Source of the DNA: Thermoplasmata archaeon
Lineage (GTDB): Archaea; Thermoplasmatota; Thermoplasmata; Lutacidiplasmatales; UBA184
Reading direction: 5' to 3'
DNA: 64,000 nt
NCBI GenBank assembly: GCA_052326305.1
Contig: JBKQPJ010000017.1
Coordinates: forward strand, 6,475-70,474
How positions within the stretch are numbered: position 1 is the first letter of the stretch; each line of letters starts with the position of its first letter. Position numbers and translations under genes: made by a program. The notes beneath the pieces were generated by a model that searched no databases, was not told where the DNA came from, and was given only the letters and a program-made list of their open reading frames with translations. Positions 8,085 through 20,808 of the stretch are shown here, piece by piece.

Positions 8085-9017
8085 CTACAGGCCCGACGGT
8101 ACGCCGGCCCGGACGAGCGGGGCATTGACCAGGATCGCCGCGACCACCGCGAGCAGGTACGGCCCCGAGAAGATGAACCCGCGCCGGGCGGTCTGCCGGG
8201 AGGCGTCGGTCCACATCGGGAGGGCGAGGGCGACGAAGATCCCTCCCAGCGCGACCAGAGCGACGAGCACCGGCCAGGTGACGGCCCCCGACCAGCCGAT
8301 CAGGATCGCCGCCGGCACGAGGAGCGCGGCCGAGAGGACCACGACCTTCCCGGAGTAGGCGACATCGTCCATCCGGGGGAGCATCGGGAGGTCCGCCCTC
8401 GCGTAATCGTCCCGGAGTAGGATCGCGAGGCTCCAGAAGTGCGGCGGGGTCCAGAGGAAGACGAGCACGGCGAAGGCGATCCCTCCGGTGGTCCAGTGGC
8501 CGACCGCCGCCGCGCTCCCCGCGAGCGCCGGAGCGCTCCCCGCGAACCCCCCGATCACGATGTTCCAGCTGGAACGGCGCTTGAGCCAGGCCGTGTAGAC
8601 CACGACGTACGTCAGCCCCCCGAGCAGGATCGAGAGCCCGGTCAGCAGGTTGAGCAGGAGCGTCGCTCCGCCCACGCCGAGGGCGAGGAGGCCGAGGCCG
8701 ACCGCGAGCACCGCGGAGGCCGGCCCGTTCGCATCGGCGGCCAAGGTGCGCTCCCGGGTCCGATGCATCCGGCGGTCGACGTCGCGGTCGAGGTAGTGGT
8801 TCAGCATCGACGCCCCCGCGCTGGCCGCGGCCCCCGTGGCTACGAGGAGGGCGAGCCGGACGAGGTCGATCGAGCGGGGATCGGCCAGGACGAAGCCGCC
8901 GACGGCGACGGTGCAGATGAGCGCCGTGATCCCCGGCTTGGCGAGCGGAAAGTAGGAGGTCCACGAGGCTCGGGGGGGATCCGATGGAGGGGCCGGGGCG
9001 ATGGGAGGGGTCGACAT
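8085..9017 (-). CDS. ctaB: protoheme IX farnesyltransferase (heme O synthase)
   Basis: UbiA-family polytopic protein; start ATG verified at 9017 (MSTPPIAP...). The conserved NHYLDRDVD motif is present. Confidence 0.9.
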   Translation of the reverse strand: MSTPPIAPAPPSDPPRASWTSYFPLAKPGITALICTVAVGGFVLADPRSIDLVRLALLVATGAAASAGASMLNHYLDRDVDRRMHRTRERTLAADANGPASAVLAVGLGLLALGVGGATLLLNLLTGLSILLGGLTYVVVYTAWLKRRSSWNIVIGGFAGSAPALAGSAAAVGHWTTGGIAFAVLVFLWTPPHFWSLAILLRDDYARADLPMLPRMDDVAYSGKVVVLSAALLVPAAILIGWSGAVTWPVLVALVALGGIFVALALPMWTDASRQTARRGFIFSGPYLLAVVAAILVNAPLVRAGVPSGL

Positions 9018-9058
9018 GGAGGGGGTCCTCGCGGGGGGGCAGAGGTCGGGGGCGGCCT

Positions 9059-9631
9059 TCAGCCTTCGGGGCTCCGATCGCCGGGGCTCCCGTTCCGGAA
9101 CGGGGCCGGGGTCGCGGATCCCACCGGGGCCGCCGGGGGCAGCGACTCCTCGGAGGCGCGGCGGGCCCAGTCGATCCACCGGCGCGGCATCTCCCTCAGG
9201 TTGGAGAGGAGCACGAGGATCAGCAGGAGGCCGAACAGGACGGTCGCGAGCCCGAGGTGCGCGATGATCAGCGCCGCCTGGAGGTTGCTCTCGACGACCA
9301 GCCCGCCCAGCAGTGCCTCCGCGACGACGAGCGCGAGCGACGCGAGGCTCAGCCGGAGGAGCACCCGGCGACCCCGCTCGAACGCGAGCCCGAGGAGGGA
9401 GAGGACCAGGACCGAGACCGAGAGGACGAACGCGAAGACCCGGTGGCTCCACTCCACGGCCGCCGGGCCCTGGAAGGCGGGGAGCAGGTTCCCGTTCGGA
9501 TAGCACGTCGGCCAGTGGGGGCATCCGAGCCCGTCCCCGTTCGCCATGACGTTCCCGCCGAGCAGGATCGTGGCGTAGCAGAGCACCGCCGCGAAGAGGG
9601 CGACGATGCGGAACAGGTCGTGGCCCCGCAT
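9059..9631 (-). CDS. ctaA: heme A synthase, short (4-TM) archaeal type
   Basis: 190 aa, four predicted TM helices, a GCPHWPTC cysteine pair in the first loop, and position between coxI and ctaB. Confidence 0.7.
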   Translation of the reverse strand: MRGHDLFRIVALFAAVLCYATILLGGNVMANGDGLGCPHWPTCYPNGNLLPAFQGPAAVEWSHRVFAFVLSVSVLVLSLLGLAFERGRRVLLRLSLASLALVVAEALLGGLVVESNLQAALIIAHLGLATVLFGLLLILVLLSNLREMPRRWIDWARRASEESLPPAAPVGSATPAPFRNGSPGDRSPEG

Positions 9632-9638
9632 CGTCCCG

Positions 9639-11324
9639 TTACGGCGCCTCCGACGACGGGGCGGCGCTCGGCAGCGGGACCGGGGTCCGGGCCGGGACGG
9701 GCGCCGGCCGGGGGGTCGGTCCGGTCATCACCGAGGGAAGCGGCTCCCCCCAGGGGTCGTCCGCGGTCACCGGGGTGCCGGCGAAGTAGGAGTAGACCAT
9801 GTTGAACAGGAAGACGAGCTGGCCGATGCCGAGGATGTACGCCCCGAGCGTCGAGAGGAAATTGAGCGCCTGGAAGTTGCCGCTCCAGAGGTACGTGTAG
9901 ACGCGGCGGGGCATCCCCTCCGCGCCCAGGAGGAACATCGGGAACAAGAGCACGTTCACGCCGACGTAGGTCAGGAGGAAGTGGATCTGCCCGAGCCGCT
10001 GGCTGTACCAGCGGCGGGTGAGGATCGGGAAGTAGAAGTAGATCGCCGCGAAGATCGCCATCAGCGTCCCGCCGAGGATGATGTAGTGGAAGTGGGCCAC
10101 GACGAAGTACGTCCCGTGGTACAGGTAGTCGATCGGGATCGAGGCGAGCATCAGGCCCGAGAGCCCGCCGATGACGAAGCCGGTGATGAACGCCACGCAG
10201 AACCACATCGGCACGGCCATCCATATCCGGCCCCCCCACAGGGTGGCGATCCAGTTGAACGTCTTGACCGCGGACGGCACGGCGATCGCCATCGTCGCGA
10301 GCATGAAGACGAACCGGACGTTCGTCGCGATGCCCGTGACGAACATGTGGTGCTCCCAGACGGCGAACGAGAGGACGGCGAAGACCCCAAGGGAGATCGC
10401 CATCGCCCCGTAGCCGAAGATGTCCTTGCGCGCGAGCTTCGGGAGGATCGTGGAGACGAGCCCGAACGCGGGGAGGACCATGATGTACACCTCGGGGTGC
10501 GCGAAGAACCAGAAGACGTTCTGGTAGAGGAGCGCCCCGCCGAGCGGCGTCCCGTTGGCCGCCGCGAGCATGTGCGTGTGGAGGAGGCGGTCCGACAGGA
10601 TCATCGTGAGGCCGATCGACAGCGACGGGAGGGCGAAGATGAGGAGCACCGAGTTGATCAGCGTCGCCCAGACGAACAGCGGCATGTTCCAGTAATGCAC
10701 GCCCGGCGCGCGGTGCTTCAGGATCGTGACGAGGAAGTTGACCGCCCCGAGCATCGAGGAGATCGTGAGGATGTGCAGCCCGAGGATCCAGAGGTCGATG
10801 CCGTTCCCCGGGGCCTCGACGGAGAGAGGAACGTAGCCGGTCCACCCCGCGTTGGCGTTCGAGAGGATGAGGATGATCCCGGCCGGCGGGAGCATCCAGA
10901 AGGCGATCGCGTTGATCCGGGGGAGGGCCATCTCCCGCGATCCGATCATCGACGGGACGAGGTAGTTCCCGAAACCGGCGAGGGTCGGGATGACGAACAT
11001 GAAGACCATCAGCACCCCGTGCATCGTGAACAGCACGGAGTAGACGTTCGGCGAGATCCCGAGGGTCGTCTGCGGGTCGAGCCCCAGCCCCTGGGCGAGG
11101 CCGAGGTCGGTTCGGATCAGCGTGGCGTAGATCCCGCCGATGAAGAAGAACAGGATCCCGATCCCGATGTACATGAGGCCGATCCGCTTGTGGTCGGTCG
11201 TGAACACCCAGCGCTTCAGCACCGCGAGCAGCCACGGCCCGCGGTAGGCGAGCATCCACAGGACGAAGCCGGCGAACCCGGCGATCAACGCGACCAGCAC
11301 GACGGCCGTCGTCACCGCGCTCAT
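9639..11324 (-). CDS. coxA: heme-copper oxidase subunit I
   Basis: 561 aa, 12+ TM helices, canonical subunit-I histidine ligand motifs (WFFGHPEVY, HHMF...). GGGAGG RBS upstream. Confidence 0.95.
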
Positions 11325-11340
11325 CGGGCCCCTCCCGTCG

Positions 11341-11685
11341 TCACGTCAGCAATCCCCCGAGCACGTACGCGATCGCCGCGCCGGCCAGGACCAGGATGAG
11401 GACCTGGAGGAACCGGATCTGGGCCTGCGCGCTCACCGGCCCCGGGGGGGTGGGGACGAACCGCCGGCCGAGCGGCCAGGCGCGGTAGGTGCGGTCGACG
11501 ACGTGGAAGATCGCCGCGGCCATCAACGACATCAGCCCGATCGCGTAGCCGAACGACGTCTGGGCGCCCGGGCTGGTGAGCGGTCCGAGGCGGATCGAGT
11601 ACACCGCGAGCACCGCGATCCCGAGCAGCATCATCGCGACGACCGCCGTGTAGAGGGTCAGCGTCCGATCCCGGAGCGCCGCCAT
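11341..11685 (-). CDS. small integral membrane protein (possible oxidase-associated subunit)
   Basis: Three hydrophobic helices, located between coxI and cytochrome b. ATG at 11685. Confidence 0.45.
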
Positions 11686-11689
11686 ATCG

Positions 11690-11956
11690 CTATTCAAACA
11701 GCTCCACCCTCCTTCCGGTCGCCCCGCGGTACCGATCGACCCGGTACAGGATCCCCAGCGTGAACAGGCAGGAGAGGACCGCCGCGATCCCCCCGATCGC
11801 GACGAACAGGAGGTCCAGCGGTTCGCCGGCCGCGACCCCGAGCACGCCGTAGACGAAGGTCGCCGCCCCCGCCGAGCCGACGATCACGAACCCGGCGAGG
11901 ATCCCCCAGAGGACCCCGGTCTTCCATTGGGGCCGGTCCGCCCGGGGTTCAGTCAT
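11690..11956 (-). CDS. small integral membrane protein (2 TM)
   Basis: ATGA overlap with the cytochrome b stop; strongly hydrophobic. Confidence 0.45.
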   Translation of the reverse strand: MTEPRADRPQWKTGVLWGILAGFVIVGSAGAATFVYGVLGVAAGEPLDLLFVAIGGIAAVLSCLFTLGILYRVDRYRGATGRRVELFE

Positions 11957-13298
11957 GGGGCCTCCGCTCGGGGACGCCGGGAGGGGAGGGGGAGCCTGCG
12001 GACGGGGGGCGGTAGACCCCCTCGAACGCGTGCGGCCGGGCGGCGATCCGCCGGCGGTAGCTGCGCACGTACCTCCAGTGGAAGAGCGCGACGGCCAGCC
12101 CGTTCACGAGGAAGATCGGTCCGAGCGTTTGGGCGACGACCATCGGCGCTACCTGGACCCCGGGGGTCTCGCCCCCCCAGACGGTCATCAGGATAAGGAA
12201 GCCGAGCAGGGAGGTCGCGATCCAGATGAACAGCGGGCGGTCGCGCGGATGGGTGCGCTTCGACCGGTCGAGGAACGGCAGGAACAGCACGTACGCGATG
12301 AGGGCCGTCGTCGCGCCGACAGCGATGAGGGGCGTCACCCCCTGGAAGTCGACCAGCTTGAACACCCAGAGGAAGTACCAGTCGGGCTCGGTCACGCCGG
12401 GCGAGACGCCGAGGTTGCCGACGTACGTCGGGAGCTGCCACGGCCAGAGCGCGGCGATGCCGAAGAGGACCCCCGTGTAGAGGAGGCCCCATTTCGCCAT
12501 GTAGAACAGGATGTGCGGCATGAACGGCACGTGGCTGCGGTCGTCCTTCTCGGTGAACCGTCGCCGCTGGGCCGGGTCGGAGGTGGCCGGCGGCGCGATC
12601 CCGTGCGATTCGAACAGGGCGATGTGGGCGTAGAGGAGGGCCCCGAGCGCGATCGGGATCAGGAGCACGTGGGCGTCGAACATCCGGGAAAGGAGCCCCT
12701 GGGTGGTCCCGTCCCCCTGGACGAACGGGCCGAGCAGGGGCCCGAAGGTCGGCAGACGGAGCGCGAGCACCAGGCCGACGTTCGTCGCGTTGTAGGAGAG
12801 CTGCGTGTAGGGAAGGAGGTAGCCGGTGAACCCCATCCCGAGGGTGAAGACCATCAGGAGCGTGCCGACCATCCACGAGAACTCGCGGGGGGCCTTGTAG
12901 ACGCCGAGGTAGTAGCCCCGGAAGAAGTGGACGAACATGAGGAAGATCATCGCGTAGGCGCCGTACAGATGGGTCGAGAGCAGGAGGGCGCCCATCGGCA
13001 CCGAGTGCAGGAGGTAGTACGTCGAGCACCAGGCGGCGGGCGCCGCGGAGAGCGCTCCGACCGGTTGGCCGCAGGGGGTAAGCGTGGGCAGGGTGCTCGG
13101 CTGGTAGTAGAGGAGGAGGAGGGCCCCCGAGACGACCTGGTAGAGGAAGGCGTTCACGACGAACGCCCCGGTCCAGTACGACGGCTTGAACGTGAACTCG
13201 GGTTGGGGCCGTAGCGCCCACTTGCGCATCGCCGTGCGGTCCTCGACGAACCCCCAGAGGCGGTTGAGGGTCCGGTTGTACCATCGAGAGAACGTCAC
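11949..13298 (-). CDS. cytochrome b of a bc-type complex
   Basis: HSVPMGALLL ... HLYGAYAMIFLMFVHFFRGYYLG bis-histidine heme motifs; 449 aa. GTG start 17 nt after the Rieske stop. Confidence 0.9.
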   Translation of the reverse strand: MTFSRWYNRTLNRLWGFVEDRTAMRKWALRPQPEFTFKPSYWTGAFVVNAFLYQVVSGALLLLYYQPSTLPTLTPCGQPVGALSAAPAAWCSTYYLLHSVPMGALLLSTHLYGAYAMIFLMFVHFFRGYYLGVYKAPREFSWMVGTLLMVFTLGMGFTGYLLPYTQLSYNATNVGLVLALRLPTFGPLLGPFVQGDGTTQGLLSRMFDAHVLLIPIALGALLYAHIALFESHGIAPPATSDPAQRRRFTEKDDRSHVPFMPHILFYMAKWGLLYTGVLFGIAALWPWQLPTYVGNLGVSPGVTEPDWYFLWVFKLVDFQGVTPLIAVGATTALIAYVLFLPFLDRSKRTHPRDRPLFIWIATSLLGFLILMTVWGGETPGVQVAPMVVAQTLGPIFLVNGLAVALFHWRYVRSYRRRIAARPHAFEGVYRPPSAGSPSPPGVPERRPHD

Positions 13299-13314
13299 CG
13301 ATGAACCGCTCCTG

Positions 13315-14013
13315 CTAGAGGAAATTGCAGAGGTGGACCGGCGACTCGGTCGCCAGCTGGCTCGTGTTCCCCACTCCGTAATCGCCCTGCAGCGTGTTGA
13401 GGTGCCCGTTCACGGGCGGACCGACCACGTTCGTCGCGAAGACCTGGTTGGCCTGTGGGCCGGTGGTGTAGGGCGCGGTCAGGATGACCTGGGGCAACGG
13501 CAGGACCGCCGGTCCGGTAAGGTTCGAGGCGCGGTTCGCGACGTCGTAGGTCGAGCCATGGCAGGAGCAGTGGATGTAGAAGTTCTTCCCGCCGGGCGAG
13601 TCGTCCTGGCACGTCCCGGGGGGGTAGTACGCGATCGCCGGCGCCGGGCACCCGAGGTGCTGGCAGATCGCGCTGAACGCGACGATCGAGCCGTACGGCC
13701 CAATGCCTCCGGGAACGTAGTCCTGGACCTCGTGGAGGTTCAGGAGGAAGTTCGGCTCGTTCCGCAGCGGATAGTTGAAGAGGTACAGCTCCGAGGTCTT
13801 GCCGTTGATCCCGGTGTTCGGGTCGAGCGAGCCCTTGCCGATCGTGAGGGGGCTGCCGTCGAGGTCGAGCAGGAGGACCGTGGGGTAACTCGACAGGCCG
13901 ACCGCCGGCGGCTGCACGTACTGGAGCGCTCCGCCCACGGCCCCCCCGGCGCCGATCCCGAGCACGCCGGCCACGGCCGCGAGCTTCAGGATGTTGCGTT
14001 TCGTCTCATCCAC
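13315..14013 (-). CDS. Rieske [2Fe-2S] iron-sulfur protein (Tat substrate)
   Basis: Box I CQHLGCP and Box II CSCHGS. A KR-type twin-arginine signal (TKRNILKLAAVAG). The ORF is open to 14235, but a GTG at 14013 gives a typical length. Confidence 0.8.
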   Translation of the reverse strand: MDETKRNILKLAAVAGVLGIGAGGAVGGALQYVQPPAVGLSSYPTVLLLDLDGSPLTIGKGSLDPNTGINGKTSELYLFNYPLRNEPNFLLNLHEVQDYVPGGIGPYGSIVAFSAICQHLGCPAPAIAYYPPGTCQDDSPGGKNFYIHCSCHGSTYDVANRASNLTGPAVLPLPQVILTAPYTTGPQANQVFATNVVGPPVNGHLNTLQGDYGVGNTSQLATESPVHLCNFL

Positions 14014-14123
14014 CTCCCCGTCGGCGGCGGCGACGCGACGGACCTGGCCGATCGGCAGTTCGAGCGCCGCCTCGCGTCGGGGCGGGAACGGGCACGCGTC
14101 GGTCCCGCAGAGCTCGGGGAACG

Positions 14124-14309
14124 TCAGAGGGTCCTCCCCCGGGTGTCCGGCCGGGCGTCGTCGGCCTCCCCGGGCGGTGGGATTGTCGCCTCGCCCGGGA
14201 GCTCGGCGTTCTCGCTCCCGTAGTAGACGCCCCACGTGATGCCGATCCCCATCAGAAGGACGAGGACCTCGGTCAGCGTCACGATCTGGTCGGGGGAGAG
14301 CGCGCTCAT
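14124..14309 (-). CDS. hypothetical single-TM protein (61 aa)
   Basis: Track ORF with one hydrophobic helix, between tatA2 and Rieske. Confidence 0.3.
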   Translation of the reverse strand: MSALSPDQIVTLTEVLVLLMGIGITWGVYYGSENAELPGEATIPPPGEADDARPDTRGRTL

Positions 14310-14686
14310 CGGAACTCCTCCGTCGGCGGGACCCCGCCAGTGACCGACCAGCTGAGGATCGGCGAACCGCCGGTCCAGGGCACGCCCGGGGGCGGCGGGA
14401 GGCGGGGGAGCGCGGCCGGAGGCACCGTCACGGCCGCCGGGATGGCACTCGCGCGGGCGACCGCGGGGTCCAGTCCGAGCAGCGCGGATCGCAGGCTCGG
14501 CGCTCCATTACCGATCGGCAGGTCGGCCGCCTTCGACACCTCCGAGAGCAGGTCCTGCTTCAGCCGGATCGCGCGGCCGTACCATCGCCCCAGCGTCCGC
14601 ACCACCTGGGCGTTCTCCCGGCCGAACAGGAGGAACGCCGCGACGACCGCGATGATCATCCAGTCGATGTCGGAGAACATCCCCAT
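14306..14686 (-). CDS. tatA: Sec-independent translocase TatA/TatB-family protein
   Basis: N-terminal TM helix followed by a FGRENAQVVRTLGRWYGRAIRLKQD amphipathic helix. Confidence 0.6.
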   Translation of the reverse strand: MGMFSDIDWMIIAVVAAFLLFGRENAQVVRTLGRWYGRAIRLKQDLLSEVSKAADLPIGNGAPSLRSALLGLDPAVARASAIPAAVTVPPAALPRLPPPPGVPWTGGSPILSWSVTGGVPPTEEFR

Positions 14687-14690
14687 CAGC

Positions 14691-15524
14691 TCACCCCGCT
14701 CCCGCGGCGAGCCCCGGCTTCGCGCGGGCGTTCGAGCGGCGCTCCCAGCGGGCGGCGAAGTACGCCCCGCCGAGGTAGAGCGCCATCATCGGCGCCGCGA
14801 TCAGGAGCATCGTGATGCCCGAGTTGTCCGGGGTCACGATCATGCCGAAGATGAGGGACCCGAGGATCGCCCCCCGCCAATGCTTGCGCCAGGCCCCGGC
14901 CCGGACGACCCCGAGGCGGGTCAGGCCGTAGATGAAGACCGGCAGCTCGAAGACGACGCCGAAGGCGAGCGAGTAGAGCAGGGCGAACGTGACGAACGAC
15001 TGGACGCCGAGCACGGGGTCGAGCCCCATCGCCGCCACGTACAGGAACAGGAGCCGGAAGGTGAACGGGGTCAGGAAGAACACGCCGATCGCCGTGCCGA
15101 GGGCGAAGAGCGCCGTCGCCGGTAGGCCGATCTGGCGCAGCAGCATCCGCTCGTTCCGGCGGAGGGCGGGGACGAGGAACGCGGCGACCTCGTGGACGAT
15201 CCACGGCATTCCGAGGATGAGGGTGAGCAGGAGCCCGATCTCCATCTGGACCACGATCGAATCCGCGACCCCGACGTTCAACAGCGTGATCCCGGGCGGG
15301 AGCATCCAGGCGACCATGGCGCGGAACACCTGCGCCGTGATGTTGTAGAACGGGTTCGGCCAGGGGTAGGCGAGCGGGATCCTCCACCCGTCGACCGTGA
15401 CGTGGAACGGCACCAGCCGCACGAGGATGAGCGCGCCGAAGAGCGGGCCGAGCACCAGCGCGACGCGGACGAGCCGTCGCCGGGCCTCGGAGACGACCGC
15501 AAGGATCCGGTCGAGGTCGCCCAT
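14691..15524 (-). CDS. tatC: Sec-independent translocase TatC
   Basis: 277 aa, 6 TM helices, TatC-like loops. Confidence 0.9.
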   Translation of the reverse strand: MGDLDRILAVVSEARRRLVRVALVLGPLFGALILVRLVPFHVTVDGWRIPLAYPWPNPFYNITAQVFRAMVAWMLPPGITLLNVGVADSIVVQMEIGLLLTLILGMPWIVHEVAAFLVPALRRNERMLLRQIGLPATALFALGTAIGVFFLTPFTFRLLFLYVAAMGLDPVLGVQSFVTFALLYSLAFGVVFELPVFIYGLTRLGVVRAGAWRKHWRGAILGSLIFGMIVTPDNSGITMLLIAAPMMALYLGGAYFAARWERRSNARAKPGLAAGAG

Positions 15525-15630
15525 CGTTCCCTACCGGTCCGGTCCGAAACCCGTCAGGACGGACCGTGGCAAGACCTGTCGGTCGCCGAAACGTTCCTCC
15601 GTCTCCCATGCCGGCGTAGGACCGTCCGTC

Positions 15631-15837
15631 CTAGCGCGGTGCGGTCGACGAGGGGGCTCCGGGGGATGGTGCGGTCTGCTCGGCCTTCAGCTCGCGCTCG
15701 ACCTCGAGACGGCCCTTCTTGAACTCCCCGACGGACCGACCGAGGCTATGGGCGAGCTGGGGAATCTTGCTGGACCCATAGAATAGGATTCCAGCCACTA
15801 CGGCGATGATCAGCCAGTCGTCGATGGAGTCGAACAC
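15631..15837 (-). CDS. tatA: Sec-independent translocase TatA
   Basis: IIAVVAGILFYGSSKIPQLAHSLGRSVGEFKKG. GTG at 15837 preceded by GAGGAGA; the track ORF extends to 15909. Confidence 0.65.
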   Translation of the reverse strand: MFDSIDDWLIIAVVAGILFYGSSKIPQLAHSLGRSVGEFKKGRLEVERELKAEQTAPSPGAPSSTAPR

Positions 15838-15954
15838 CGTTCTCCTCGACCGTCTCACTCGGGAACCGCCGATATGACGTTCGTACGGTGCGACCCAACC
15901 CGTACGCACGGTCCGTATCTGGGGCGGATAAAGGGTCGATCGCGGCCGGGCATC

Positions 15955-16998
15955 TCAGGCGAGCTCGGTCAACACGGATTCGCTGCCCGACGCGACGGCC
16001 CGGTCGATCGCGAGCTCGGCGAGCAGCGAGAGGCAGGTCCCGGAGCGCTTGAGGAGGTACGACGTGGCCCGGTTCCGGCCCGAGCGGGCGCTCAGCGCCG
16101 TGGCAACGGCCGCCAGCGCCGAGCCGTTCCCGACGCGGTCACCCTGTTGGTAGACCTCGCAGGCGTGGTCGAGGGAGGGATGCATGACGGAGTCGACCAC
16201 CGCCTTGAGCTGGCCCTTGACATCGGGGATGATCTCCGCCAGTCCCGCGGCGGCGTCGATCGACAGGCGGGGCGCCTCCTCGTTCAGCGTCGCCAGCGCC
16301 TCGCCGAAGAGCGCTGCGAGCTCCTCGAGGGAATGGACCACGACCCGCCATTCGAGCAGCTGGCGGGGGTCGGGGCTGCCGATCCGTCGGGCGAGCGACC
16401 AGTCGCGGCTCGCGAGGAACAGCTGTCGCACGAGCAGGGCGAGCACCTTGTTCGCCTCCTCCTCGAGGGTCGGAAGCCGACGGCTGCGCCCCTTGCGCCG
16501 GGCGACCTCCTCCATCTCCTCGAGGAAGGCGACCAGGATCATCTTCATGCGCTGGACCAGCTGGGGAAGGCCGTACTTCGACGGGTCGATGAAGTTCTGG
16601 AGCACGACCCGGTTGGGCTCCTGCGCGACCACGGAAACGCCGAGGAGCCCCCGGGCGGCCTGGAGCAGCTCCTCGAGACGATCCGGGGCGAGCGGCACGT
16701 CGGTGCGGACCTCGATCGAGTCGTGCCCGACCCGGTAGGCGCCGACGATCAAGCGCTCGAGCAGCCCCGGCGTCTCGATCGACCGCGCCTGGACGAGGAA
16801 CGGAGTGGTGACCCCCGGGGCTCCGGGCGCCGGGGCGGGTTTCAGGTACAGCGTCCCGTCATCGTTCTGGTCGAAGACGACGAGATCCCCGGGATGGAGG
16901 TTCATCGCCTCGGCCCACGGCTTGGGGAGGGTGACCGCGATCGACGAATGGCCGGCCTTCAAGACTCTACGCTCCCGACTCGGGGTTCCCCACGCCAT
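15955..16998 (-). CDS. PhoU-family regulator with N-terminal AbrB/SpoVT domain
   Basis: N-terminus VLKAGHSSIAVTLPKPWAEAMNLHPGDLVVF (SpoVT/AbrB swapped hairpin), followed by PhoU-like helical repeats. Confidence 0.65.
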   Translation of the reverse strand: MAWGTPSRERRVLKAGHSSIAVTLPKPWAEAMNLHPGDLVVFDQNDDGTLYLKPAPAPGAPGVTTPFLVQARSIETPGLLERLIVGAYRVGHDSIEVRTDVPLAPDRLEELLQAARGLLGVSVVAQEPNRVVLQNFIDPSKYGLPQLVQRMKMILVAFLEEMEEVARRKGRSRRLPTLEEEANKVLALLVRQLFLASRDWSLARRIGSPDPRQLLEWRVVVHSLEELAALFGEALATLNEEAPRLSIDAAAGLAEIIPDVKGQLKAVVDSVMHPSLDHACEVYQQGDRVGNGSALAAVATALSARSGRNRATSYLLKRSGTCLSLLAELAIDRAVASGSESVLTELA

Positions 16999-17086
16999 CG
17001 ATCCGCTCTGAACCTACTACGGGTTCCGTAGGCTGTAGGGCGGGGGGGTCTTGAACGTTTCGTCGGCGGCGGGAGGGCGGGGCGGC

Positions 17087-17806
17087 TCAGGCGGTCGGCG
17101 GGGAAGTCGGCGGTTTGCCGGCCGGCGGAGCGCCCGGTTCGGCGTAGCCGAGCCGCTCGGGAGGCATCTCGTGCTTCGCCCCCTCCCGCCGCCCGACCAC
17201 GAACCCGGCGACGATGGCGATCACGGTCAGGGTGACGATCGTCCCGACGATGATGAAGACGGCCAGCCCCGGCCCCGGGGCCGAGGAGGAGGGGACGAGA
17301 TAGGCCGGGACGGTCGTGTTGAAGGCGATGAAGCCGTACATCCCGGCGGCGAAGTGGCCCGATTCGGTGCAGACGAACTCGTACCAGCCGGGTTTCGATG
17401 GGGCCGTGAAGCTCCGGGTGAGGGAGGATTTGGCCGCGGGGACGATGTTCGCGAGGGGCGGGAGGGCGCACGTCGAACCGGTCCCGTTGATGAATTGCTG
17501 GGGGGTATCGGTCGACGGTATCGAGACGTTCGCGCACCCTAGGATGGTGAACGTATGGATCCCGCCGTTCGTGTCGCCGTTGATGAACTTGAGCGAGATG
17601 GAGACACTCTCGGGCACCCCGTTGATCACGTTCGGGGTGAACCCGAAGGTGCTCGTCGCCGTGACGGTCACGGACGTCGAGGTGTCCACGATCTCGGACG
17701 ACGCCCGGGCCTCCCGGACGACATCGTTGCCTGCCAGTCCCGCGAAGAGGACCAGAAGGAGGATGCCTACCGCCACGGCGGTGCGTCCGGCTCGCTTCAC
17801 TCCCAT
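17087..17806 (-). CDS. membrane-anchored type-1 blue copper protein (sulfocyanin/halocyanin-like cupredoxin)
   Basis: Cu site CTESGHFAAGMYG with upstream GGIHTF His. An N-terminal signal/anchor (ATG verified at 17806) and a C-terminal TM helix; several N-x-S/T sequons. Confidence 0.8.
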   Translation of the reverse strand: MGVKRAGRTAVAVGILLLVLFAGLAGNDVVREARASSEIVDTSTSVTVTATSTFGFTPNVINGVPESVSISLKFINGDTNGGIHTFTILGCANVSIPSTDTPQQFINGTGSTCALPPLANIVPAAKSSLTRSFTAPSKPGWYEFVCTESGHFAAGMYGFIAFNTTVPAYLVPSSSAPGPGLAVFIIVGTIVTLTVIAIVAGFVVGRREGAKHEMPPERLGYAEPGAPPAGKPPTSPPTA

Positions 17807-17941
17807 CCTGTCCGGGGAGCTCCCCCGGCCGCCCCTCGCAGACCGGGTGCGGTTCAAACCCCCTCCGTACGTACCCGTTCGCCCGTATCCGGGGCCCGGG
17901 AGGGCAAAACCGTACGAACGCGGGGGATATGTAGGGCCGTA

Positions 17942-18184
17942 GTGCACGACCCCATCGTGGACGGGTCCAGAACGTCGGGGACGCGGACGATCCCCCTGGC
18001 GTTCGGCTCCTTCGGGGCGGTCGGGTCCGGGACGGCCGGTGCGACGAACCTTCAGCTCACCCAGCCCCTGCTCTGGGCGATGATCGCGATCAGCACCGCC
18101 GGAGCGATCGTGACGTTCGCCTTCCTCGTCTACGCCCTCTGGCGCTACCGGGATCCGGCGGTGCGGAGGCGACGTTATGGTTAA
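17942..18184 (+). CDS. cytochrome oxidase subunit II N-terminal fragment (TM1 + basic cytoplasmic loop); split gene or frameshift
   Basis: Hydrophobic helix LLWAMIAISTAGAIVTFAFLVYALW followed by RYRDPAVRRRRYG. It ends with a TAA that overlaps the ATG of the next ORF (ATGGTTAA). Confidence 0.45.
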   Translation: MHDPIVDGSRTSGTRTIPLAFGSFGAVGSGTAGATNLQLTQPLLWAMIAISTAGAIVTFAFLVYALWRYRDPAVRRRRYG

Positions 18185-18635
18185 CAAGCTCGAGGTCGCC
18201 TGGACCCTCACGGTCGTCGCCCTGATCACCGGGGTCGGCGTGTACTCCACGGTCCTGCTCTACAAGATCGACGCGCTCACACCGAACCCGGCCGAGTACG
18301 TCGAGGTGACCGGCCACCAGTGGTACTGGGAGTTCTGCTACTCGAACAAGACCTGCTTCAACTCGAACTACAACGCCGCCACCGGCCAGACCACCGGCGG
18401 GGCGTTATGGGCGACCCCCGGTTCGGTGATCCAGGTCAACGTCACCGGCGCCGACGTGATCCATTCGTTCAACATCCCGCAGCTCGGCATCCGGATCGAT
18501 GCGATCCCGGACCGGGTGAACACGATCGACATCCAGATCCCGAACGCTCCGGTGGGCACGGAGTACGCGATCCAGTGCACGGAGTTCTGCGGGACGTTCC
18601 ACGGCACGATGCGCTCGGAGCTCGTGCTGACGTAA
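18177..18635 (+). CDS. coxB: cytochrome oxidase subunit II (TM2 + CuA cupredoxin domain)
   Basis: GHQWYWEF aromatic motif and CuA ligands H...CTEFCGTFHGTM. Confidence 0.9.
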   Translation: MVNKLEVAWTLTVVALITGVGVYSTVLLYKIDALTPNPAEYVEVTGHQWYWEFCYSNKTCFNSNYNAATGQTTGGALWATPGSVIQVNVTGADVIHSFNIPQLGIRIDAIPDRVNTIDIQIPNAPVGTEYAIQCTEFCGTFHGTMRSELVLT

Positions 18636-18672
18636 GGCGCCCGAGCTCCCCCGGCGGAGGGGCCGGTCCGGT

Positions 18673-19746
18673 TCACGCGCCGCCGTGCTGGGAGGGAGGC
18701 GACCGGGGGAAGCGGCCGGCGAACCCCGCGACGACCAAGAACACGGCCCCGATCCCGAGGAGGATCGCGGAGCCGGCGAGCACCCACGTCTCCACGATCG
18801 CGCTGCTCGGCGGACCGCCTCCCGTGGGCACCGGGACCCCGGCGTAGAGGTACCCGAACATCCCATTCTCGAAGTGGCCGGGGACGGTGCAGACGAACTC
18901 GTAGATCCCTTTCGCGGGGATCGAGAAGTTGGCCCAACCGCTCTTCCCGGCCTCCGAGGGGATCGTGGCGTTCGCGAGCGGAGGATGGTCCTTGAGCCAG
19001 CCCACCGTCGTGATGTTCAGGTCCGGTTGCGCCACGACCGTGAACGTGTGGGCGAGACCGCCGAGATTGGTGACCTTGATGATCACGTTCGCGGGGAACT
19101 GGGCGGGCTGGGCCGAGAGGGCCGCCGGCTGGAAGGAGAAGGAGTTCGTCGCGTTGTCGGAGAGGACGAGACCGGGCGAGCTCGACGAGATGTTCAGGAA
19201 GCCCCACATGCCGGCCTGGAACTGGTACGGGACCTGCGACACGAACTCGAAGGAGTCGAGGCTCGCGGTCTTCGCGATGGAGAAGTTCGCCCATCGTTCG
19301 TGACCCGCGGGGACCGAGACGTTCGCGATCGGCGGGTAGCTGGCGAACGATTCGTTCAGATCTGCCGGAGTCCAGGATCGGTTGAGCAGGACCCCGCTCT
19401 GGCTCGACAGGGTGAAACTATGCGGGAGGAGACCGGTGTTGTTGAGGTGCACCGACACGTTGTCGCCGGGCGCCGCGCTGATCGACCTCGGGTCGAACGC
19501 CGGCCCGTCCGTCAGGACCAGGTAGATCGTCTCGTTGGCCGCCGCCGGGTGGGCGTACCCGACGGACGGGGCGAAGGAGAGGAACGGCACGCCGCGGGCC
19601 CCTCCGACCGACGCGACGACGGCCAGCACGAGCCCGGCGGCGAGCCACGGGGACGCCCGACGCACACCTCCCGCCGATCGGCCCCACGGCGTGACCTTGA
19701 CCGCCTCCCGGGAGACTCTCGACCGCCGAACCGTTGATATCGGCAC
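18673..19746 (-). CDS. two-domain cupredoxin-family surface protein, C-terminally membrane-anchored, heavily N-glycosylation-sequon-rich
   Basis: The C-terminal domain has an intact type-1 Cu site (LAHTF ... CTVPGHFENGMFGY). The N-terminal domain is cupredoxin-like but lacks the Cys/His ligands. Eleven N-x-S/T sequons and a C-terminal TM helix. Confidence 0.75.
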   Translation of the reverse strand: MPISTVRRSRVSREAVKVTPWGRSAGGVRRASPWLAAGLVLAVVASVGGARGVPFLSFAPSVGYAHPAAANETIYLVLTDGPAFDPRSISAAPGDNVSVHLNNTGLLPHSFTLSSQSGVLLNRSWTPADLNESFASYPPIANVSVPAGHERWANFSIAKTASLDSFEFVSQVPYQFQAGMWGFLNISSSSPGLVLSDNATNSFSFQPAALSAQPAQFPANVIIKVTNLGGLAHTFTVVAQPDLNITTVGWLKDHPPLANATIPSEAGKSGWANFSIPAKGIYEFVCTVPGHFENGMFGYLYAGVPVPTGGGPPSSAIVETWVLAGSAILLGIGAVFLVVAGFAGRFPRSPPSQHGGA

Positions 19747-19770
19747 TGTACGAATCGCCCCTCCCTCCCT

Positions 19771-20808
19771 TTAGCGGACGGAGAGGGGCCGGTCGGCCGC
19801 GGACGGTTCCGCCGGGCGCGTGCGGACCGCGGGGCGGGCCGATCCCGTCGCGTCGGTCTGGCGTAACGGCGGGGTGGCGGCCGTCGGTCCGGAGTAGCAG
19901 CGGCGGACGAGGTAGCTCACCTCCCCGACCATGCCGACGGTCATGACCGCGCCGAAGAGTATCCGGGAGGCGTTCTGGCCCCCGTCGGCCACGAGCCCGA
20001 CGGCGGAAACGGCCATGGCCAGGAAGAGCCCGCTGAGCGCGATCAGGAATCGCAACTCGGACGGCGACGCCCGGTGCTGCAGGAGGACCCGGGCCACGAA
20101 CAGGAACAGGCCGACCATCACCGCCGCGGCGGCGAGCCCGCCGACGAGCGGAAAGGCGGTCACCCACGGGGCCGAGACGCTCGCGAGGGCGAGGGCGGCG
20201 GACCCGGATCGCTCGACGGAGGAGAGCGGCGCCCAGAGAAGGAGCGCGATCATCACCACGGCCATCGACCAGTAGAGCCAGATCGACGAGAGGCCGAGGG
20301 CGATCGCCGTCGGGATGGAGAGCGCCCCGCTGGCCCCGCCCACGGCGAACAGGAGCCCCATCAGCACCTCGGAGCCCGTCACCGCGACCCCGAGGGTGAG
20401 CGGCCAGGTCCAGCCCCGCGTGGAGATCGTGCGGTCCTCGAAGAGGATCTGGGAGACGAACCAGAACCCGGCCGGGAACATCATCATGAAGTTGAACGAG
20501 AGCAGCACCCAGGTCCATGCCTCCGTACCGTTCTGGTCGATGAAGACGAAGAGCAGCGAGAGGAGCAGAACGCTCCCTCCCGAGAGCACCGAGAGCGCGA
20601 GGACCAGCTGGGTGAGGAGCGGTGGGGCTCGTTGGCGGGGGAGGACCTTGATCAGGACGAAGACCGTGATCGCGATCATCGCGATGGCGATGACCGCGAA
20701 CGGCAGCAGGGCCGCGCTCACGCCGACGACCGGGAACGGGACCCGCATTCGCTGAGCCCGCCGAGCTCCGGCCGTTTGATATCGTGCCGGTACCGACCCG
20801 CCTCGCAC
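19771..20808 (-). CDS. polytopic membrane protein (7-8 TM), possible oxidase accessory subunit
   Basis: Highly hydrophobic and co-directional with, and directly upstream of, the cupredoxin gene. No diagnostic motif recognised. Confidence 0.55.
   Translation of the reverse strand: MRGGSVPARYQTAGARRAQRMRVPFPVVGVSAALLPFAVIAIAMIAITVFVLIKVLPRQRAPPLLTQLVLALSVLSGGSVLLLSLLFVFIDQNGTEAWTWVLLSFNFMMMFPAGFWFVSQILFEDRTISTRGWTWPLTLGVAVTGSEVLMGLLFAVGGASGALSIPTAIALGLSSIWLYWSMAVVMIALLLWAPLSSVERSGSAALALASVSAPWVTAFPLVGGLAAAAVMVGLFLFVARVLLQHRASPSELRFLIALSGLFLAMAVSAVGLVADGGQNASRILFGAVMTVGMVGEVSYLVRRCYSGPTAATPPLRQTDATGSARPAVRTRPAEPSAADRPLSVR

What the first reader, a model, noticed from the sequence alone, without database searches (positions are those of the whole stretch)
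17942..18635. Cytochrome oxidase subunit II is split (or frameshifted) exactly in the TM1-TM2 cytoplasmic loop
The CuA-domain ORF (18177-18635) starts with only one TM helix. A second upstream ORF in another frame encodes a textbook CoxII TM1 followed by a positive-inside loop (RYRDPAVRRRRYG). It ends with a TAA that overlaps the downstream ATG (ATGGTTAA). This suggests either a genuinely split CoxII made as two coupled polypeptides, a programmed or erroneous frameshift, or an assembly indel.
Basis: seen in the sequence. Interest (0 to 1): 0.65.

Follow-up and report, generated by a model that had tools for sequence, protein, structure and literature searches.

The report
Naturally split cytochrome oxidase subunit II
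In this soil archaeon and at least 80 related species, the copper-carrying subunit II of the respiratory oxidase is encoded as two overlapping genes, a small first-membrane-helix peptide and the rest of the protein; this is a conserved gene split, not a sequencing error.

Summary
An 80-codon ORF (17942-18184) encodes a transmembrane helix and an Arg-rich tail. It ends in a TAA that overlaps by 8 nt (ATGGTTAA) the start of a 152-aa CuA/COX2 ORF (18177-18635) with only one helix.

It is not an indel. Three independent assemblies of the same organism have it. All 81 species-level genomes examined (Thermoplasmata, probably Lutacidiplasmatales by GC content and locus layout) keep the same junction:
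- ATG is present in 81/81.
- The stop is TAA, TGA or TAG.
- The rare codons TAT/CAT and GGT are fixed there, against the codon usage of these GC-rich genes.

No fused homologue was seen.

Joining the two ORFs conceptually gives one continuous alignment to Paracoccus and Rhodobacter subunit II (TM1, loop, TM2). It raises the CoxB profile score from 107 to 128 bits.

Other archaeal lineages split the same loop with different overlaps (TTGA, ATGA, TAATG). Fusing those would need the opposite frameshift, which argues against programmed frameshifting.

Best reading: gene fission of an A-type CoxII into two translationally coupled polypeptides. It is functionally analogous to subunit IIa of ba3 oxidases, but keeps sequence homology and the canonical orientation. 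It is a new variant of a known kind and moderately interesting.

The parts
17942..18184 (+). coxB-N: small ORF (80 aa from GTG 17942; NCBI calls a 75-aa version, consistent with GTG 17957). It encodes a variable signal-peptide-like N-terminus, a conserved (T/S)NLQLT motif, transmembrane helix 1 and an Arg-rich cytoplasmic tail ending ...RRRYG*
   Evidence: 96 stand-alone homologues of 56-134 aa, all ending RR[YHIF]G. Called as a gene in three Logan assemblies. Adds 21 bits to the CoxB profile and aligns to TM1 of Paracoccus/Rhodobacter subunit II.
18068..18142 (+). Transmembrane helix 1 (LLWAMIAISTAGAIVTFAFLVYALW), homologous to TM1 of canonical A-type subunit II
   Evidence: Hydropathy. Alignment to 1QLE_B and 3OM3_B/2GSM_B, with the run YAVWRF identical to the family consensus YAVWKF apart from K/R.
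18143..18181 (+). Positive-inside tail RYRDPAVRRRRYG, the first half of the ancestral TM1-TM2 cytoplasmic loop
   Evidence: 6 Arg against 1 acidic residue. FRDP..RRYG is conserved in 79 distinct sequences.
18165..18169 (+). GGAGG Shine-Dalgarno-like motif inside the Arg codons (CGG AGG), 7 nt upstream of the coxB-C ATG
   Evidence: A match of 5 nt or more to GGAGGTGATC occurs in 37.5% of loci, against 8% after synonymous resampling (maximum 17.5% in 1000 trials). AGG makes up 15% of Arg codons in the tail and 1.8% in the CuA ORFs.
18177..18184 (+). 8-nt overlap ATGGTTAA: start codon of coxB-C (ATG 18177-18179) and stop codon of coxB-N (TAA 18182-18184)
   Evidence: Across 81 species-level loci the consensus is NATGGYTRR: ATG 81/81; stop TAA 65, TGA 10, TAG 6.
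18177..18635 (+). coxB-C: subunit II lacking TM1 (152 aa) = second half of the loop (MVNKLE), TM2 and the CuA cupredoxin domain
   Evidence: PF00116 61 bits. TIGR02866 CoxB 107 bits, covering only profile positions 54-190. The 120 best homologues are all 151-159 aa.
18195..18263 (+). Transmembrane helix 2 (VAWTLTVVALITGVGVYSTVLLY), preceded by the canonical LE..WT motif
18462..18611 (+). CuA centre ligands H96 ... C134-x-E136-x-C138-x3-H142-x2-M145
   Evidence: Motif scan. Invariant columns in alignment A1.
9639..11324 (-). coxA: A-type subunit I (561 aa, HPEVY motif), the presumed partner. It lies about 7 kb away on the other strand, next to cytochrome b, Rieske and haem A/O synthesis genes
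   Evidence: PF00115 472 bits. TIGR02891 CtaD_CoxA 589 bits against SoxB 68 bits. Motifs.

Best explanation
The coxB gene of an A-type haem-copper oxidase has undergone gene fission in the cytoplasmic loop between its two transmembrane helices.

The upstream ORF (coxB-N) makes a small peptide: a probable signal peptide, then TM1, then an Arg-rich tail, oriented N-out/C-in. The downstream ORF (coxB-C) makes TM2 plus the CuA domain, oriented N-in/C-out.

The two are co-transcribed and translationally coupled. The coxB-C ATG lies 5 nt before the coxB-N stop, so a terminating ribosome can re-initiate. In many species it is also preceded by a GGAGG-like motif written into the Arg codons.

The two polypeptides are inferred to reassemble next to subunit I into the normal two-helix anchor. 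This is what subunit IIa plus subunit II do in Thermus ba3 oxidase.

In this clade the junction looks like the scar of a single-base insertion. Removing one T (GGTTAAC to GGTAAC) restores ...RRRRYGNKLEVAWT, the canonical (H/Y)GN..LE..WT loop.

Shown here: the two ORFs, their conservation, their homology to the two halves of CoxB, and the invariant start/stop geometry. Inferred: separate translation, signal-peptide cleavage, and assembly into the oxidase.
For: 1. Not an error. The junction is identical in three independent Logan assemblies. It is also identical in 81/81 species-level loci whose CuA domains are only 60-82% identical.

2. Selection on the start and stop codons:
- ATG is present in 81/81.
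- The codon supplying its AT is TAT (65) or CAT (16), never TAC or CAC. Elsewhere in the same genes TAT is 8.5% of Tyr codons and CAT 19% of His codons.
- The stop is kept at the same position but varies (TAA 65, TGA 10, TAG 6), and residue 3 of coxB-C changes accordingly (N, S, E, D).

3. No fused relatives were seen. The 120 best CuA homologues are 151-159 aa. All 96 coxB-N homologues are 56-134 aa.

4. coxB-N looks like a real coding sequence. TM1, FRDP and RRYG are conserved. Mean pairwise difference by codon position is 0.39 (position 3), 0.29 (position 1) and 0.21 (position 2).

5. Homology across the break:
- The conceptual fusion profile aligns in one stretch to Paracoccus 1QLE_B/1AR1_B, and its first stretch to Rhodobacter 3OM3_B/2GSM_B runs through TM1, loop and TM2.
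- The TIGR02866 CoxB score rises from 107.4 bits (profile 54-190) to 128.5 bits (profile 11-190).
- IMG assigns several coxB-N homologues to oxidase subunit 2.

6. SD-like motif: enriched over synonymous resampling, with AGG Arg codons enriched about 8-fold in the tail.

7. Other lineages split the same loop with other junctions:
- L084: TTGA overlap, same Tat/AbrB/cupredoxin context.
- L089: ATGA overlap.
- L085/L086 (Bathyarchaeia): TAATG overlap, followed by COX1 and COX3.
- Concatenating these pairs also gives single-stretch CoxB matches of 134-150 bits.
- The Bathyarchaeia peptide has 130 stand-alone homologues. Some hit Pfam COX2_TM, and NCBI names some 'cytochrome c oxidase subunit II transmembrane domain-containing protein'.

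8. Precedent: ba3 oxidase works with a one-helix subunit II plus a separate helix, IIa (PMC3141039, PMC3128077).
Against: - There is no protein-level evidence. Separate translation, peptide stability and incorporation into the oxidase are all inferred.
- The junction is frozen over a divergence at which third codon positions differ in about 40% of pairwise comparisons. GGT is kept in 79/81 loci against 8.8% usage. Simple coupling does not obviously require this much conservation. I attribute it to dual-frame coding plus retained loop residues, but a recoding signal would also predict it.
- About 40% of loci lack an SD-like match of 4 nt or more.
- Pfam COX2_TM does not hit this clade's peptide. 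The peptide profile alone finds nothing in the PDB.
- The loci are phylogenetically related, so the counts are not independent events.
Confidence: 0.84

Rival explanations
1. Programmed +1 ribosomal frameshifting. With GGU in the P site and the stop codon in the A site, a fraction (or most) of ribosomes skip the T and read AAC. This would yield a full-length two-helix CoxII (...RRRRYG-NKLE...). The short peptide would then be a by-product or a second product.
For: - A +1 shift at the stop restores exactly the canonical loop motif.
- The geometry GGY-stop-N is invariant in 81/81 loci, and GGT is fixed in 79/81 against 8.8% usage.
- Shift sites that depend on a stop codon are the classical +1 design (prfB, antizyme; from general knowledge).
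Against: - ATG is conserved in 81/81 through rare NAT codons. Frameshifting alone would not need this.
- GGU to GUU gives no P-site re-pairing (seen in the sequence). The codon GGG, which would re-pair, is never used.
- The GGAGG motif lies 9 nt before the P-site codon and 7 nt before the ATG. That is initiation spacing, not the ~3 nt that stimulates +1 shifting in prfB (general knowledge, from E. coli).
- Related lineages with the same split have TTGA, ATGA or TAATG junctions. These would need a -1 shift, and L084 has long divergent ends on both sides.
- All gene callers and all homologues start at the same Met.
Confidence: 0.06
2. The upstream ORF is conserved and expressed but is no longer part of the oxidase. 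CoxB-C would function with one helix alone, as some single-helix subunit II proteins may. The peptide would have acquired another role, for example assembly factor or membrane chaperone, or would be dispensable.
For: - Single-helix subunit II enzymes exist. Expressing only subunits I and II of the Geobacillus ba3-type oxidase gave an active, proton-pumping enzyme, although the authors could not exclude that subunit IIa was present (PMC3128077).
- No direct evidence of assembly was obtained here.
Against: - The peptide retains sequence homology to TM1, and its coupling to coxB-C is invariant in four junction types across two phyla. This is most simply explained by stoichiometric co-assembly.
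- TM1 residues are more conserved than the N-terminal region.
Confidence: 0.08
3. Artefact or decay: a sequencing or assembly indel, or a recently frameshifted pseudogene.
For: A single extra T accounts for the frame change.
Against: - The junction is the same in three independent assemblies of this organism.
- It is the same in 80 other species-level MAGs from different projects and assemblers. All three stop codons are used, both ORFs are under constraint, and all CuA ligands are intact.
Confidence: 0.01

Closest known systems
Subunit IIa (CbaD) plus one-helix subunit II of B-type (ba3) oxidases of Thermus thermophilus, Aquifex aeolicus and others
   Same: A small single-helix polypeptide is encoded immediately upstream of a one-helix CuA subunit II. 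It is thought to fill the place of TM1 of canonical subunit II. Prunetti et al. explicitly raised fission between the two helices as a possible origin (PMC3128077).
   Different: - The oxidase here is A-type (HPEVY; CtaD_CoxA 589 bits against SoxB 68).
- The peptide keeps detectable sequence homology to TM1. No similarity was found for IIa (PMC3128077).
- The positive-inside rule predicts the canonical N-out/C-in orientation here. The helix of ba3 IIa is inverted (PMC3141039).
- The IIa motif P-x1-3-G-T/A is not evident.
- The peptide is longer and has a signal-peptide-like N-terminus.
Canonical two-helix subunit II of A-type oxidases (Paracoccus denitrificans 1QLE/1AR1 chain B, Rhodobacter sphaeroides 2GSM/3OM3 chain B)
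   Same: The two ORFs joined give a collinear match: TM1, (Y/H)GN..LE..WT loop, TM2, then CuA cupredoxin with all ligands.
   Different: The protein is encoded as two overlapping genes broken in the cytoplasmic loop. The loop is short. coxB is not next to coxA.
Split cox2 (cox2a/cox2b) of chlorophycean algae, alveolates and scoliid wasps
   Same: Natural fission of cytochrome oxidase subunit II into two polypeptides that reassemble (PMC5374615, PMC9895450). PDB 9f5x chains 2B and 2C match separate parts of the profile.
   Different: The break point differs. In those cases it lies after TM2, between the membrane anchor and the CuA domain: 9f5x_2B covers profile 8-106 and 2C covers 133-196. Here it lies between TM1 and TM2. 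The eukaryotic pieces are separate genes, often in different genomes, not an overlapping coupled pair.
Stand-alone 'cytochrome c oxidase subunit II transmembrane domain-containing protein' ORFs upstream of one-helix coxB in Bathyarchaeia MAGs
   Same: The same loop is split, and a small TM1 ORF abuts a coxB of about 156 aa. The concatenated pair scores 150 bits on CoxB, above the equivalog cut-off.
   Different: - The junction differs (TAATG, 1-nt overlap).
- The signal peptide is textbook (…AYA|Q).
- coxA and coxC follow directly.
- Some of these peptides reach Pfam COX2_TM and are already named by NCBI's pipeline. The Thermoplasmata peptides are all 'hypothetical protein'.

Membership tests
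Haem-copper oxidase subunit II (CoxB/COX2), CuA type | Periplasmic cupredoxin domain matching PF00116 above the gathering score | tested here: met
   61 bits against a cut-off of 22 for ORF 18177-18635.
Haem-copper oxidase subunit II (CoxB/COX2), CuA type | CuA ligand set H...C-x-E-x-C-x3-H-x2-M | tested here: met
   H96, C134, E136, C138, H142 and M145 are present and invariant in 30 homologues.
Haem-copper oxidase subunit II (CoxB/COX2), CuA type | Two N-terminal transmembrane helices in one polypeptide (canonical A-type architecture) | tested here: not met
   The CuA ORF has one helix and covers only CoxB profile positions 54-190. Positions 11-53 are supplied by the separate upstream ORF.
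Haem-copper oxidase subunit II (CoxB/COX2), CuA type | An A-type subunit I partner in the same genome | tested here: met
   ORF 9639-11324(-): PF00115 472 bits, TIGR02891 589 bits, HPEVY motif. Physical association was not tested.
Subunit IIa of B-type (ba3) oxidases | Small single-helix protein encoded directly upstream of a one-helix subunit II | tested here: met
Subunit IIa of B-type (ba3) oxidases | Partner oxidase belongs to the B family | tested here: not met
   Subunit I is A-type. PMC9287336 classes all Thermoplasmatota coxA as A1.
Subunit IIa of B-type (ba3) oxidases | P-x1-3-G-T/A motif and conserved Trp (Prunetti et al. 2011); helix inverted relative to aa3 TM1 | tested here: not met
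   No such Pro-Gly motif is evident in the family consensus TNLQxTxPLVWVMxAISVAGAIVTF... (by inspection). The charge distribution predicts the C-terminus inside, which is the canonical orientation and not the inverted one. Orientation is an inference, not a measurement.
Split cox2a/cox2b genes of eukaryotes | Break between the two-helix anchor and the CuA domain | tested here: not met
   The break here lies between TM1 and TM2. 9f5x_2B matches profile 8-106 and 9f5x_2C matches 133-196.
Programmed +1 frameshift sites (prfB / antizyme type) | In-frame stop codon in the A site at the shift position | tested here: met
   A stop follows GGY in 81/81 loci.
Programmed +1 frameshift sites (prfB / antizyme type) | P-site codon whose tRNA can re-pair in the +1 frame, and (in bacteria) an SD-like stimulator about 3 nt upstream | tested here: not met
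   GGU to GUU does not re-pair. GGAGG lies 9 nt before the P-site codon. The rules come from bacteria and eukaryotes and are unverified for archaea.
Programmed +1 frameshift sites (prfB / antizyme type) | A trans-frame protein product is made | not testable with these tools
   Needs proteomics or a reporter assay.

The most novel reading that the evidence does not exclude
The invariant GGU-stop-AAC junction is a recoding site. Archaeal ribosomes would both terminate and re-initiate there, giving two polypeptides, and shift +1, giving a full-length two-helix CoxII. The ratio of split to fused subunit II would then be set, or regulated, at the level of translation. This would be a conserved programmed +1 frameshift in an archaeal respiratory gene.
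Probability: 0.06. Interest if true: 0.75.

Novelty: new variant of a known kind. Interest (0 to 1): 0.45.

Why it matters
- **Annotation.** It shows that the 'missing' first helix of one-helix CoxII proteins in these aerobic soil archaea is not lost. It is encoded as a separate peptite-sized gene that annotation calls hypothetical. The core oxidase of Lutacidiplasmatales-like Thermoplasmata, and apparently of soil Bathyarchaeia, should therefore be counted as subunit I + II-N + II-C.
- **Origin of subunit IIa.** It gives a clear case in which the separate helix still has sequence homology to TM1 and, in one clade, a junction that differs from an intact gene by one base. This bears on whether the subunit IIa of ba3-type oxidases could arise by fission of a two-helix subunit II. 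For IIa no sequence trace remains (PMC3128077).
- **Split membrane proteins.** It is a natural split cut in a cytoplasmic loop. This is useful for thinking about membrane insertion: a signal-peptide type I piece plus a signal-anchor type II piece.
- **Gene callers.** It is a practical warning for gene calling in high-GC archaeal MAGs.

Tried and rejected
- **Pfam on the upstream ORF and on the conceptual fusion:** no COX2_TM (PF02790) hit, only sub-threshold noise such as TatC and BPD_transp_2. NCBIfam on the peptide alone: nothing.
- **Profile of the peptide alone (A2) against PDB sequences:** only chance hits with E > 0.1. The homology shows only when the peptide is joined to the CuA ORF.
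- **Nearest longer homologue P0223 (239 aa):** it first looked like a fused form, because query residue 4 aligns at residue 80. Its N-terminus is low-complexity Ser/Pro/Ala with no helix, and it sits on a 989-nt contig. It is probably an over-extended gene call, not a fusion.
- **Look-ups of other short CoxII representatives:** P0267 is cut by the contig end. P0321 lies in a contig with many broken genes, probably a noisy assembly. Neither is informative. P0263 had only 160 nt upstream, but that was enough to show an ATGA junction.
- **Literature searches for SoxH/SoxM subunit II topology:** nothing found in the held library. I could not check whether Sulfolobus SoxH has an equivalent peptide.
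- **Tat signal idea:** I considered whether the RRRR tail acts as a Tat signal for the CuA domain, since tatA and tatC are adjacent. I rejected it because the Arg run is on a different polypeptide from TM2, and coxB-C has no RR motif at its N-terminus (sequence).
- **Minus-strand ORF 17087-18250:** this 387-aa ORF overlaps the finding but is a high-GC artefact extension. The real cupredoxin gene ends at 17800, as called in the Logan assemblies.
Full report
**1. What is in the sequence**

The window has about 70% GC. On the + strand, ORF 17942-18184 (GTG start, 80 aa) reads VHDPIVDGSRTSGTRTIPLAFGSFGAVGSGTAGATNLQLTQPLLWAMIAISTAGAIVTFAFLVYALWRYRDPAVRRRRYG*. ORF 18177-18635 (ATG start, 152 aa) starts MVNKLEVAWTLTVVALITGVGVYSTVLLYKIDAL....

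The two share the octamer ATGGTTAA (18177-18184). The ATG of the second ORF lies 5 nt before the TAA of the first.

The second ORF matches Pfam COX2 (PF00116, 61 bits against a cut-off of 22). It carries the complete CuA ligand set H96, C134, E136, C138, H142, M145. It has one hydrophobic helix, aa 7-29.

The first ORF has one strong helix, aa 43-67. Its tail has six Arg and one acidic residue, so the positive-inside rule puts its C-terminus in the cytoplasm.

In DNA this GC-rich an 80-codon ORF is not significant on its own. The region also carries a spurious 387-codon ORF on the other strand. The case rests on comparative evidence.

**2. Not an error**

The exact 152-aa protein is encoded on three independently assembled contigs from three sequencing runs. 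Each has an 80-codon gene called upstream with the same 8-nt overlap.

A search with the conceptually fused protein returned 602 homologues. The best 120, down to 66% identity, are all 151-159 aa and cover only the C-terminal 65% of the query.

A search with the small ORF returned 96 homologues. All are stand-alone proteins of 56-134 aa, and all end in RR[YHIF]G.

A scan of one genome per GTDB species gave 151 relatives. I kept 80 loci, nearly all labelled Thermoplasmata archaeon, from many projects and assemblers.

Together with the window, all 81 show the same junction:
- ATG is present in 81/81.
- The upstream stop always begins 5 nt after the A of the ATG, but is TAA in 65 loci, TGA in 10 and TAG in 6. 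Residue 3 of the downstream protein changes accordingly (N, S, E or D).
- The codon that provides the AT of the ATG is TAT (65) or CAT (16), never TAC or CAC. Elsewhere in these same genes TAT is 8.5% of Tyr codons and CAT 19% of His codons.
- The Gly codon is GGT in 79/81, against 8.8% usage elsewhere.

A start codon and a stop codon are thus both maintained by selection, against the compositional bias of the genomes. An assembly indel or a decaying pseudogene is excluded.

**3. The small ORF is the missing first helix of CoxII**

Removing one T (GGTTAAC to GGTAAC) gives ...WRYRDPAVRRRRYGNKLEVAWT... .

A profile of 14 such conceptual fusions (A3) aligns to Paracoccus denitrificans subunit II (1QLE_B, 1AR1_B; E = 2e-27) in a single stretch. 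Its first stretch to Rhodobacter sphaeroides subunit II (3OM3_B, 2GSM_B) likewise begins in TM1 and runs through the loop into TM2. The alignment includes a run, YAVWRF in Rhodobacter against YAVWKF in the family consensus, that differs only by R/K. The junction falls at RFTHNSPLE in Rhodobacter and RRYGNKLE here.

Against NCBIfam TIGR02866 (CoxB):
- The CuA ORF alone scores 107.4 bits over profile positions 54-190.
- The fusion scores 128.5 bits over positions 11-190, again in one stretch.

IMG's pipeline independently labels several of the small proteins 'heme/copper-type cytochrome/quinol oxidase subunit 2'.

The peptide alone is too short and hydrophobic to find anything in Pfam, NCBIfam or the PDB.

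Across 79 distinct sequences the helix, the FRDP motif and the RRYG end are conserved, while the N-terminal ~35 residues are not. Nucleotide differences are highest at codon position 3 (0.39) and lower at position 1 (0.29) and position 2 (0.21).

The variable N-terminus is moderately hydrophobic and is followed by a conserved small-x-G|(E/Q)TNLQ motif. In the Bathyarchaeia relatives it is a textbook signal peptide (MRRLWMPITLVSLFFALLPFAYA|QSQ). I infer a cleaved signal peptide and an N-out/C-in mature peptide of about 46 residues. That is the orientation of canonical TM1.

**4. How the two genes are expressed**

In the window a GGAGG (18165-18169) lies 7 nt upstream of the ATG, written into the Arg codons CGG AGG.

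Across 80 loci:
- A match of 5 nt or more to the archaeal SD consensus GGAGGTGATC in the 22 nt before the ATG occurs in 37.5%. After synonymous-codon resampling the mean is 8% and the maximum in 1000 trials is 17.5%.
- Matches of 4 nt or more occur in 60% against 27.5%.
- AGG is 15% of the Arg codons in the tail and 1.8% in the CuA ORFs.

The second tail position alternates between Arg (AGG) and Gly (GGG/GGA). This is a poor amino-acid substitution but a good SD substitution.

These counts are not phylogenetically independent, and about 40% of loci lack a match of 4 nt or more. The SD is therefore an aid, not a requirement. The invariant feature is the close start/stop overlap, which is the usual arrangement for termination-reinitiation coupling. 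This is an inference from general knowledge of prokaryotic operons.

**5. The frameshifting rival**

The site GGU-UAA-C, with a stop in the A site, formally resembles the +1 sites of prfB and antizyme. A +1 shift would produce a perfect canonical CoxII. I cannot exclude it without protein data.

Four points argue against it:
- The invariant ATG, kept through rare codons, is unnecessary for frameshifting.
- GGU cannot re-pair as GUU, and the re-pairing codon GGG is never used.
- The GGAGG is 9 nt from the P-site codon, not the ~3 nt that stimulates +1 shifting in E. coli.
- Relatives outside the main clade have the same split with different junctions, which would need a shift in the opposite direction.

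Those relatives are:
- L084: 48% identical CuA domain, same TatC-TatA-AbrB-cupredoxin neighbourhood. It has a TTGA overlap, and the ends on both sides are long and divergent (...REVPAHLKNVARPSNRPRTPPELP* / MSAEPPPRRSRVEEARHWRRIEWTWT).
- L089: an ATGA overlap (...RFRDRK* / MKDHTKLEIGWT).
- L085 and L086: mostly labelled Bathyarchaeia. They have a TAATG overlap (...YREKPERAVEKS* / MTSKTHAIEI...), followed by COX1 and COX3.

Concatenating these pairs also gives single-stretch CoxB matches of 134 and 150 bits from about profile position 13.

The Bathyarchaeia peptide has 130 stand-alone homologues. Some reach Pfam COX2_TM, and NCBI names some 'cytochrome c oxidase subunit II transmembrane domain-containing protein'.

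The split is therefore widespread in at least two archaeal phyla, and it is compatible with several junction designs. I put frameshifting at about 6%.

**6. Context**

The partner subunit I is at 9639-11324 (-). It scores PF00115 472 bits, TIGR02891 CtaD_CoxA 589 bits and SoxB only 68 bits. It has the HPEVY motif, so it is A-type.

It sits with cytochrome b (11949-13298), a Rieske protein (13315-14001), a short CtaA (9059-9631) and a UbiA/CtaB-type prenyltransferase (8085-9002). Then come tatA, tatC, tatA, an AbrB/MazE-domain protein and a cupredoxin, all on the minus strand. The coxB-N/coxB-C pair follows on the plus strand, and a two-domain cupredoxin on the minus strand.

This matches the complex III/IV locus described for Lutacidiplasmatales (ex-TMEG). 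That order is aerobic, comes from acidic soil and has about 69% GC. [quoted passage not shown] In the passages I read, that paper does not mention a split coxB.

**7. Comparison with what is known**

The closest functional analogue is subunit IIa of B-type oxidases. This is a separate helix, encoded upstream of a one-helix subunit II, that occupies the place of TM1. Prunetti et al. suggested either fission between the two helices or fusion as its origin, but found no sequence similarity (PMC3128077). In Thermus the IIa helix is inverted relative to aa3 oxidases (PMC3141039).

The present case differs in four ways:
- The oxidase is A-type.
- Sequence homology to TM1 is retained.
- The predicted orientation is canonical.
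- In this clade the junction is one base away from an intact gene.

Eukaryotic split cox2 genes break at a different place, after TM2.

I therefore file it as a split member of the CoxB family that works like the II/IIa pair. It is not a member of the IIa family.

**8. Verdict**

This is a real, conserved gene fission of A-type CoxII into two translationally coupled polypeptides (confidence about 0.84).

It is a new variant of a known kind. The principle has a precedent, and NCBI's pipeline already recognises the Bathyarchaeia version. The Thermoplasmata version is annotated as hypothetical, and I found no description of it in the papers available to me.

Interest is moderate (0.45). It is a tidy evolutionary intermediate and an annotation fix, not a new mechanism, unless the junction turns out to be a recoding site.

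Noticed in passing
window 8085-20808: The whole respiratory locus is present: UbiA/CtaB-like prenyltransferase, short CtaA (190 aa), A-type CoxI, a 118-aa membrane ORF, cytochrome b, Rieske, tatA/tatC/tatA, an AbrB/MazE-domain protein, a cupredoxin, split coxB, a two-domain cupredoxin and a 345-aa polytopic membrane ORF. coxB lies about 7 kb from coxA on the opposite strand. This matches the Lutacidiplasmatales locus in PMC9287336.
   Followed up: partly
window 11341-11697 (-) and 19771-20808 (-): Two conserved-looking membrane ORFs (118 aa and 345 aa by the ORF listing; the second is called as 325 aa in the Logan assemblies) flank the oxidase genes. Neither has a Pfam or NCBIfam hit. No COX3 gene was recognised among the locus ORFs I scanned, so one of these might substitute for subunit III or IV.
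   Followed up: partly
window 10358 (-), inside coxA: Subunit I has WEHHMF where the usual A-type motif, as I recall it, is W(A/G)HHMF. A Glu sits next to the histidines of this motif.
   Followed up: no
window 18336-18356 (coxB-C residues 54-60): Two invariant cysteines (C54, C60) lie in the clade-specific insert WEFCYSNxTCFNS of the CuA domain, with N-x-S/T sequons nearby (NKT, NVT). They may form an extracellular disulfide and glycosylation sites.
   Followed up: no
window 18673-19746 (-): A membrane-anchored protein with two cupredoxin-like regions. The N-terminal part resembles CopI (NF051440, 44 bits). The C-terminal part resembles rusticyanin, sulfocyanin and SoxE, all below cut-off. 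It probably replaces cytochrome c as electron donor to CuA. The Logan gene calls start it at 19590 (305 aa).
   Followed up: partly
window 17087-18250 (-): A 387-codon minus-strand ORF runs across the coxB-N gene. Only its 3' part (17087-17800, 237 aa, cupredoxin) is a real gene. This is an example of the long spurious ORFs that 70% GC produces throughout the window.
   Followed up: yes
L084 3759-4552; L085 898-1580; L089 1-577: Other archaeal lineages have the same TM1/TM2 split with different junctions: an unnamed 69%-GC relative, contigs mostly labelled Bathyarchaeia, and an unnamed low-GC contig. The junctions are TTGA, TAATG and ATGA. Whether this reflects one ancient fission or several is open.
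   Followed up: partly
L017, L042, L072 and the P0233 cluster: Some contigs carrying these archaeal genes are binned or labelled as Acidimicrobiales, 'bacterium', Saccharimonadales, Acidoferrum or Methylomirabilota. These are probably mis-binned short contigs in public MAGs.
   Followed up: no
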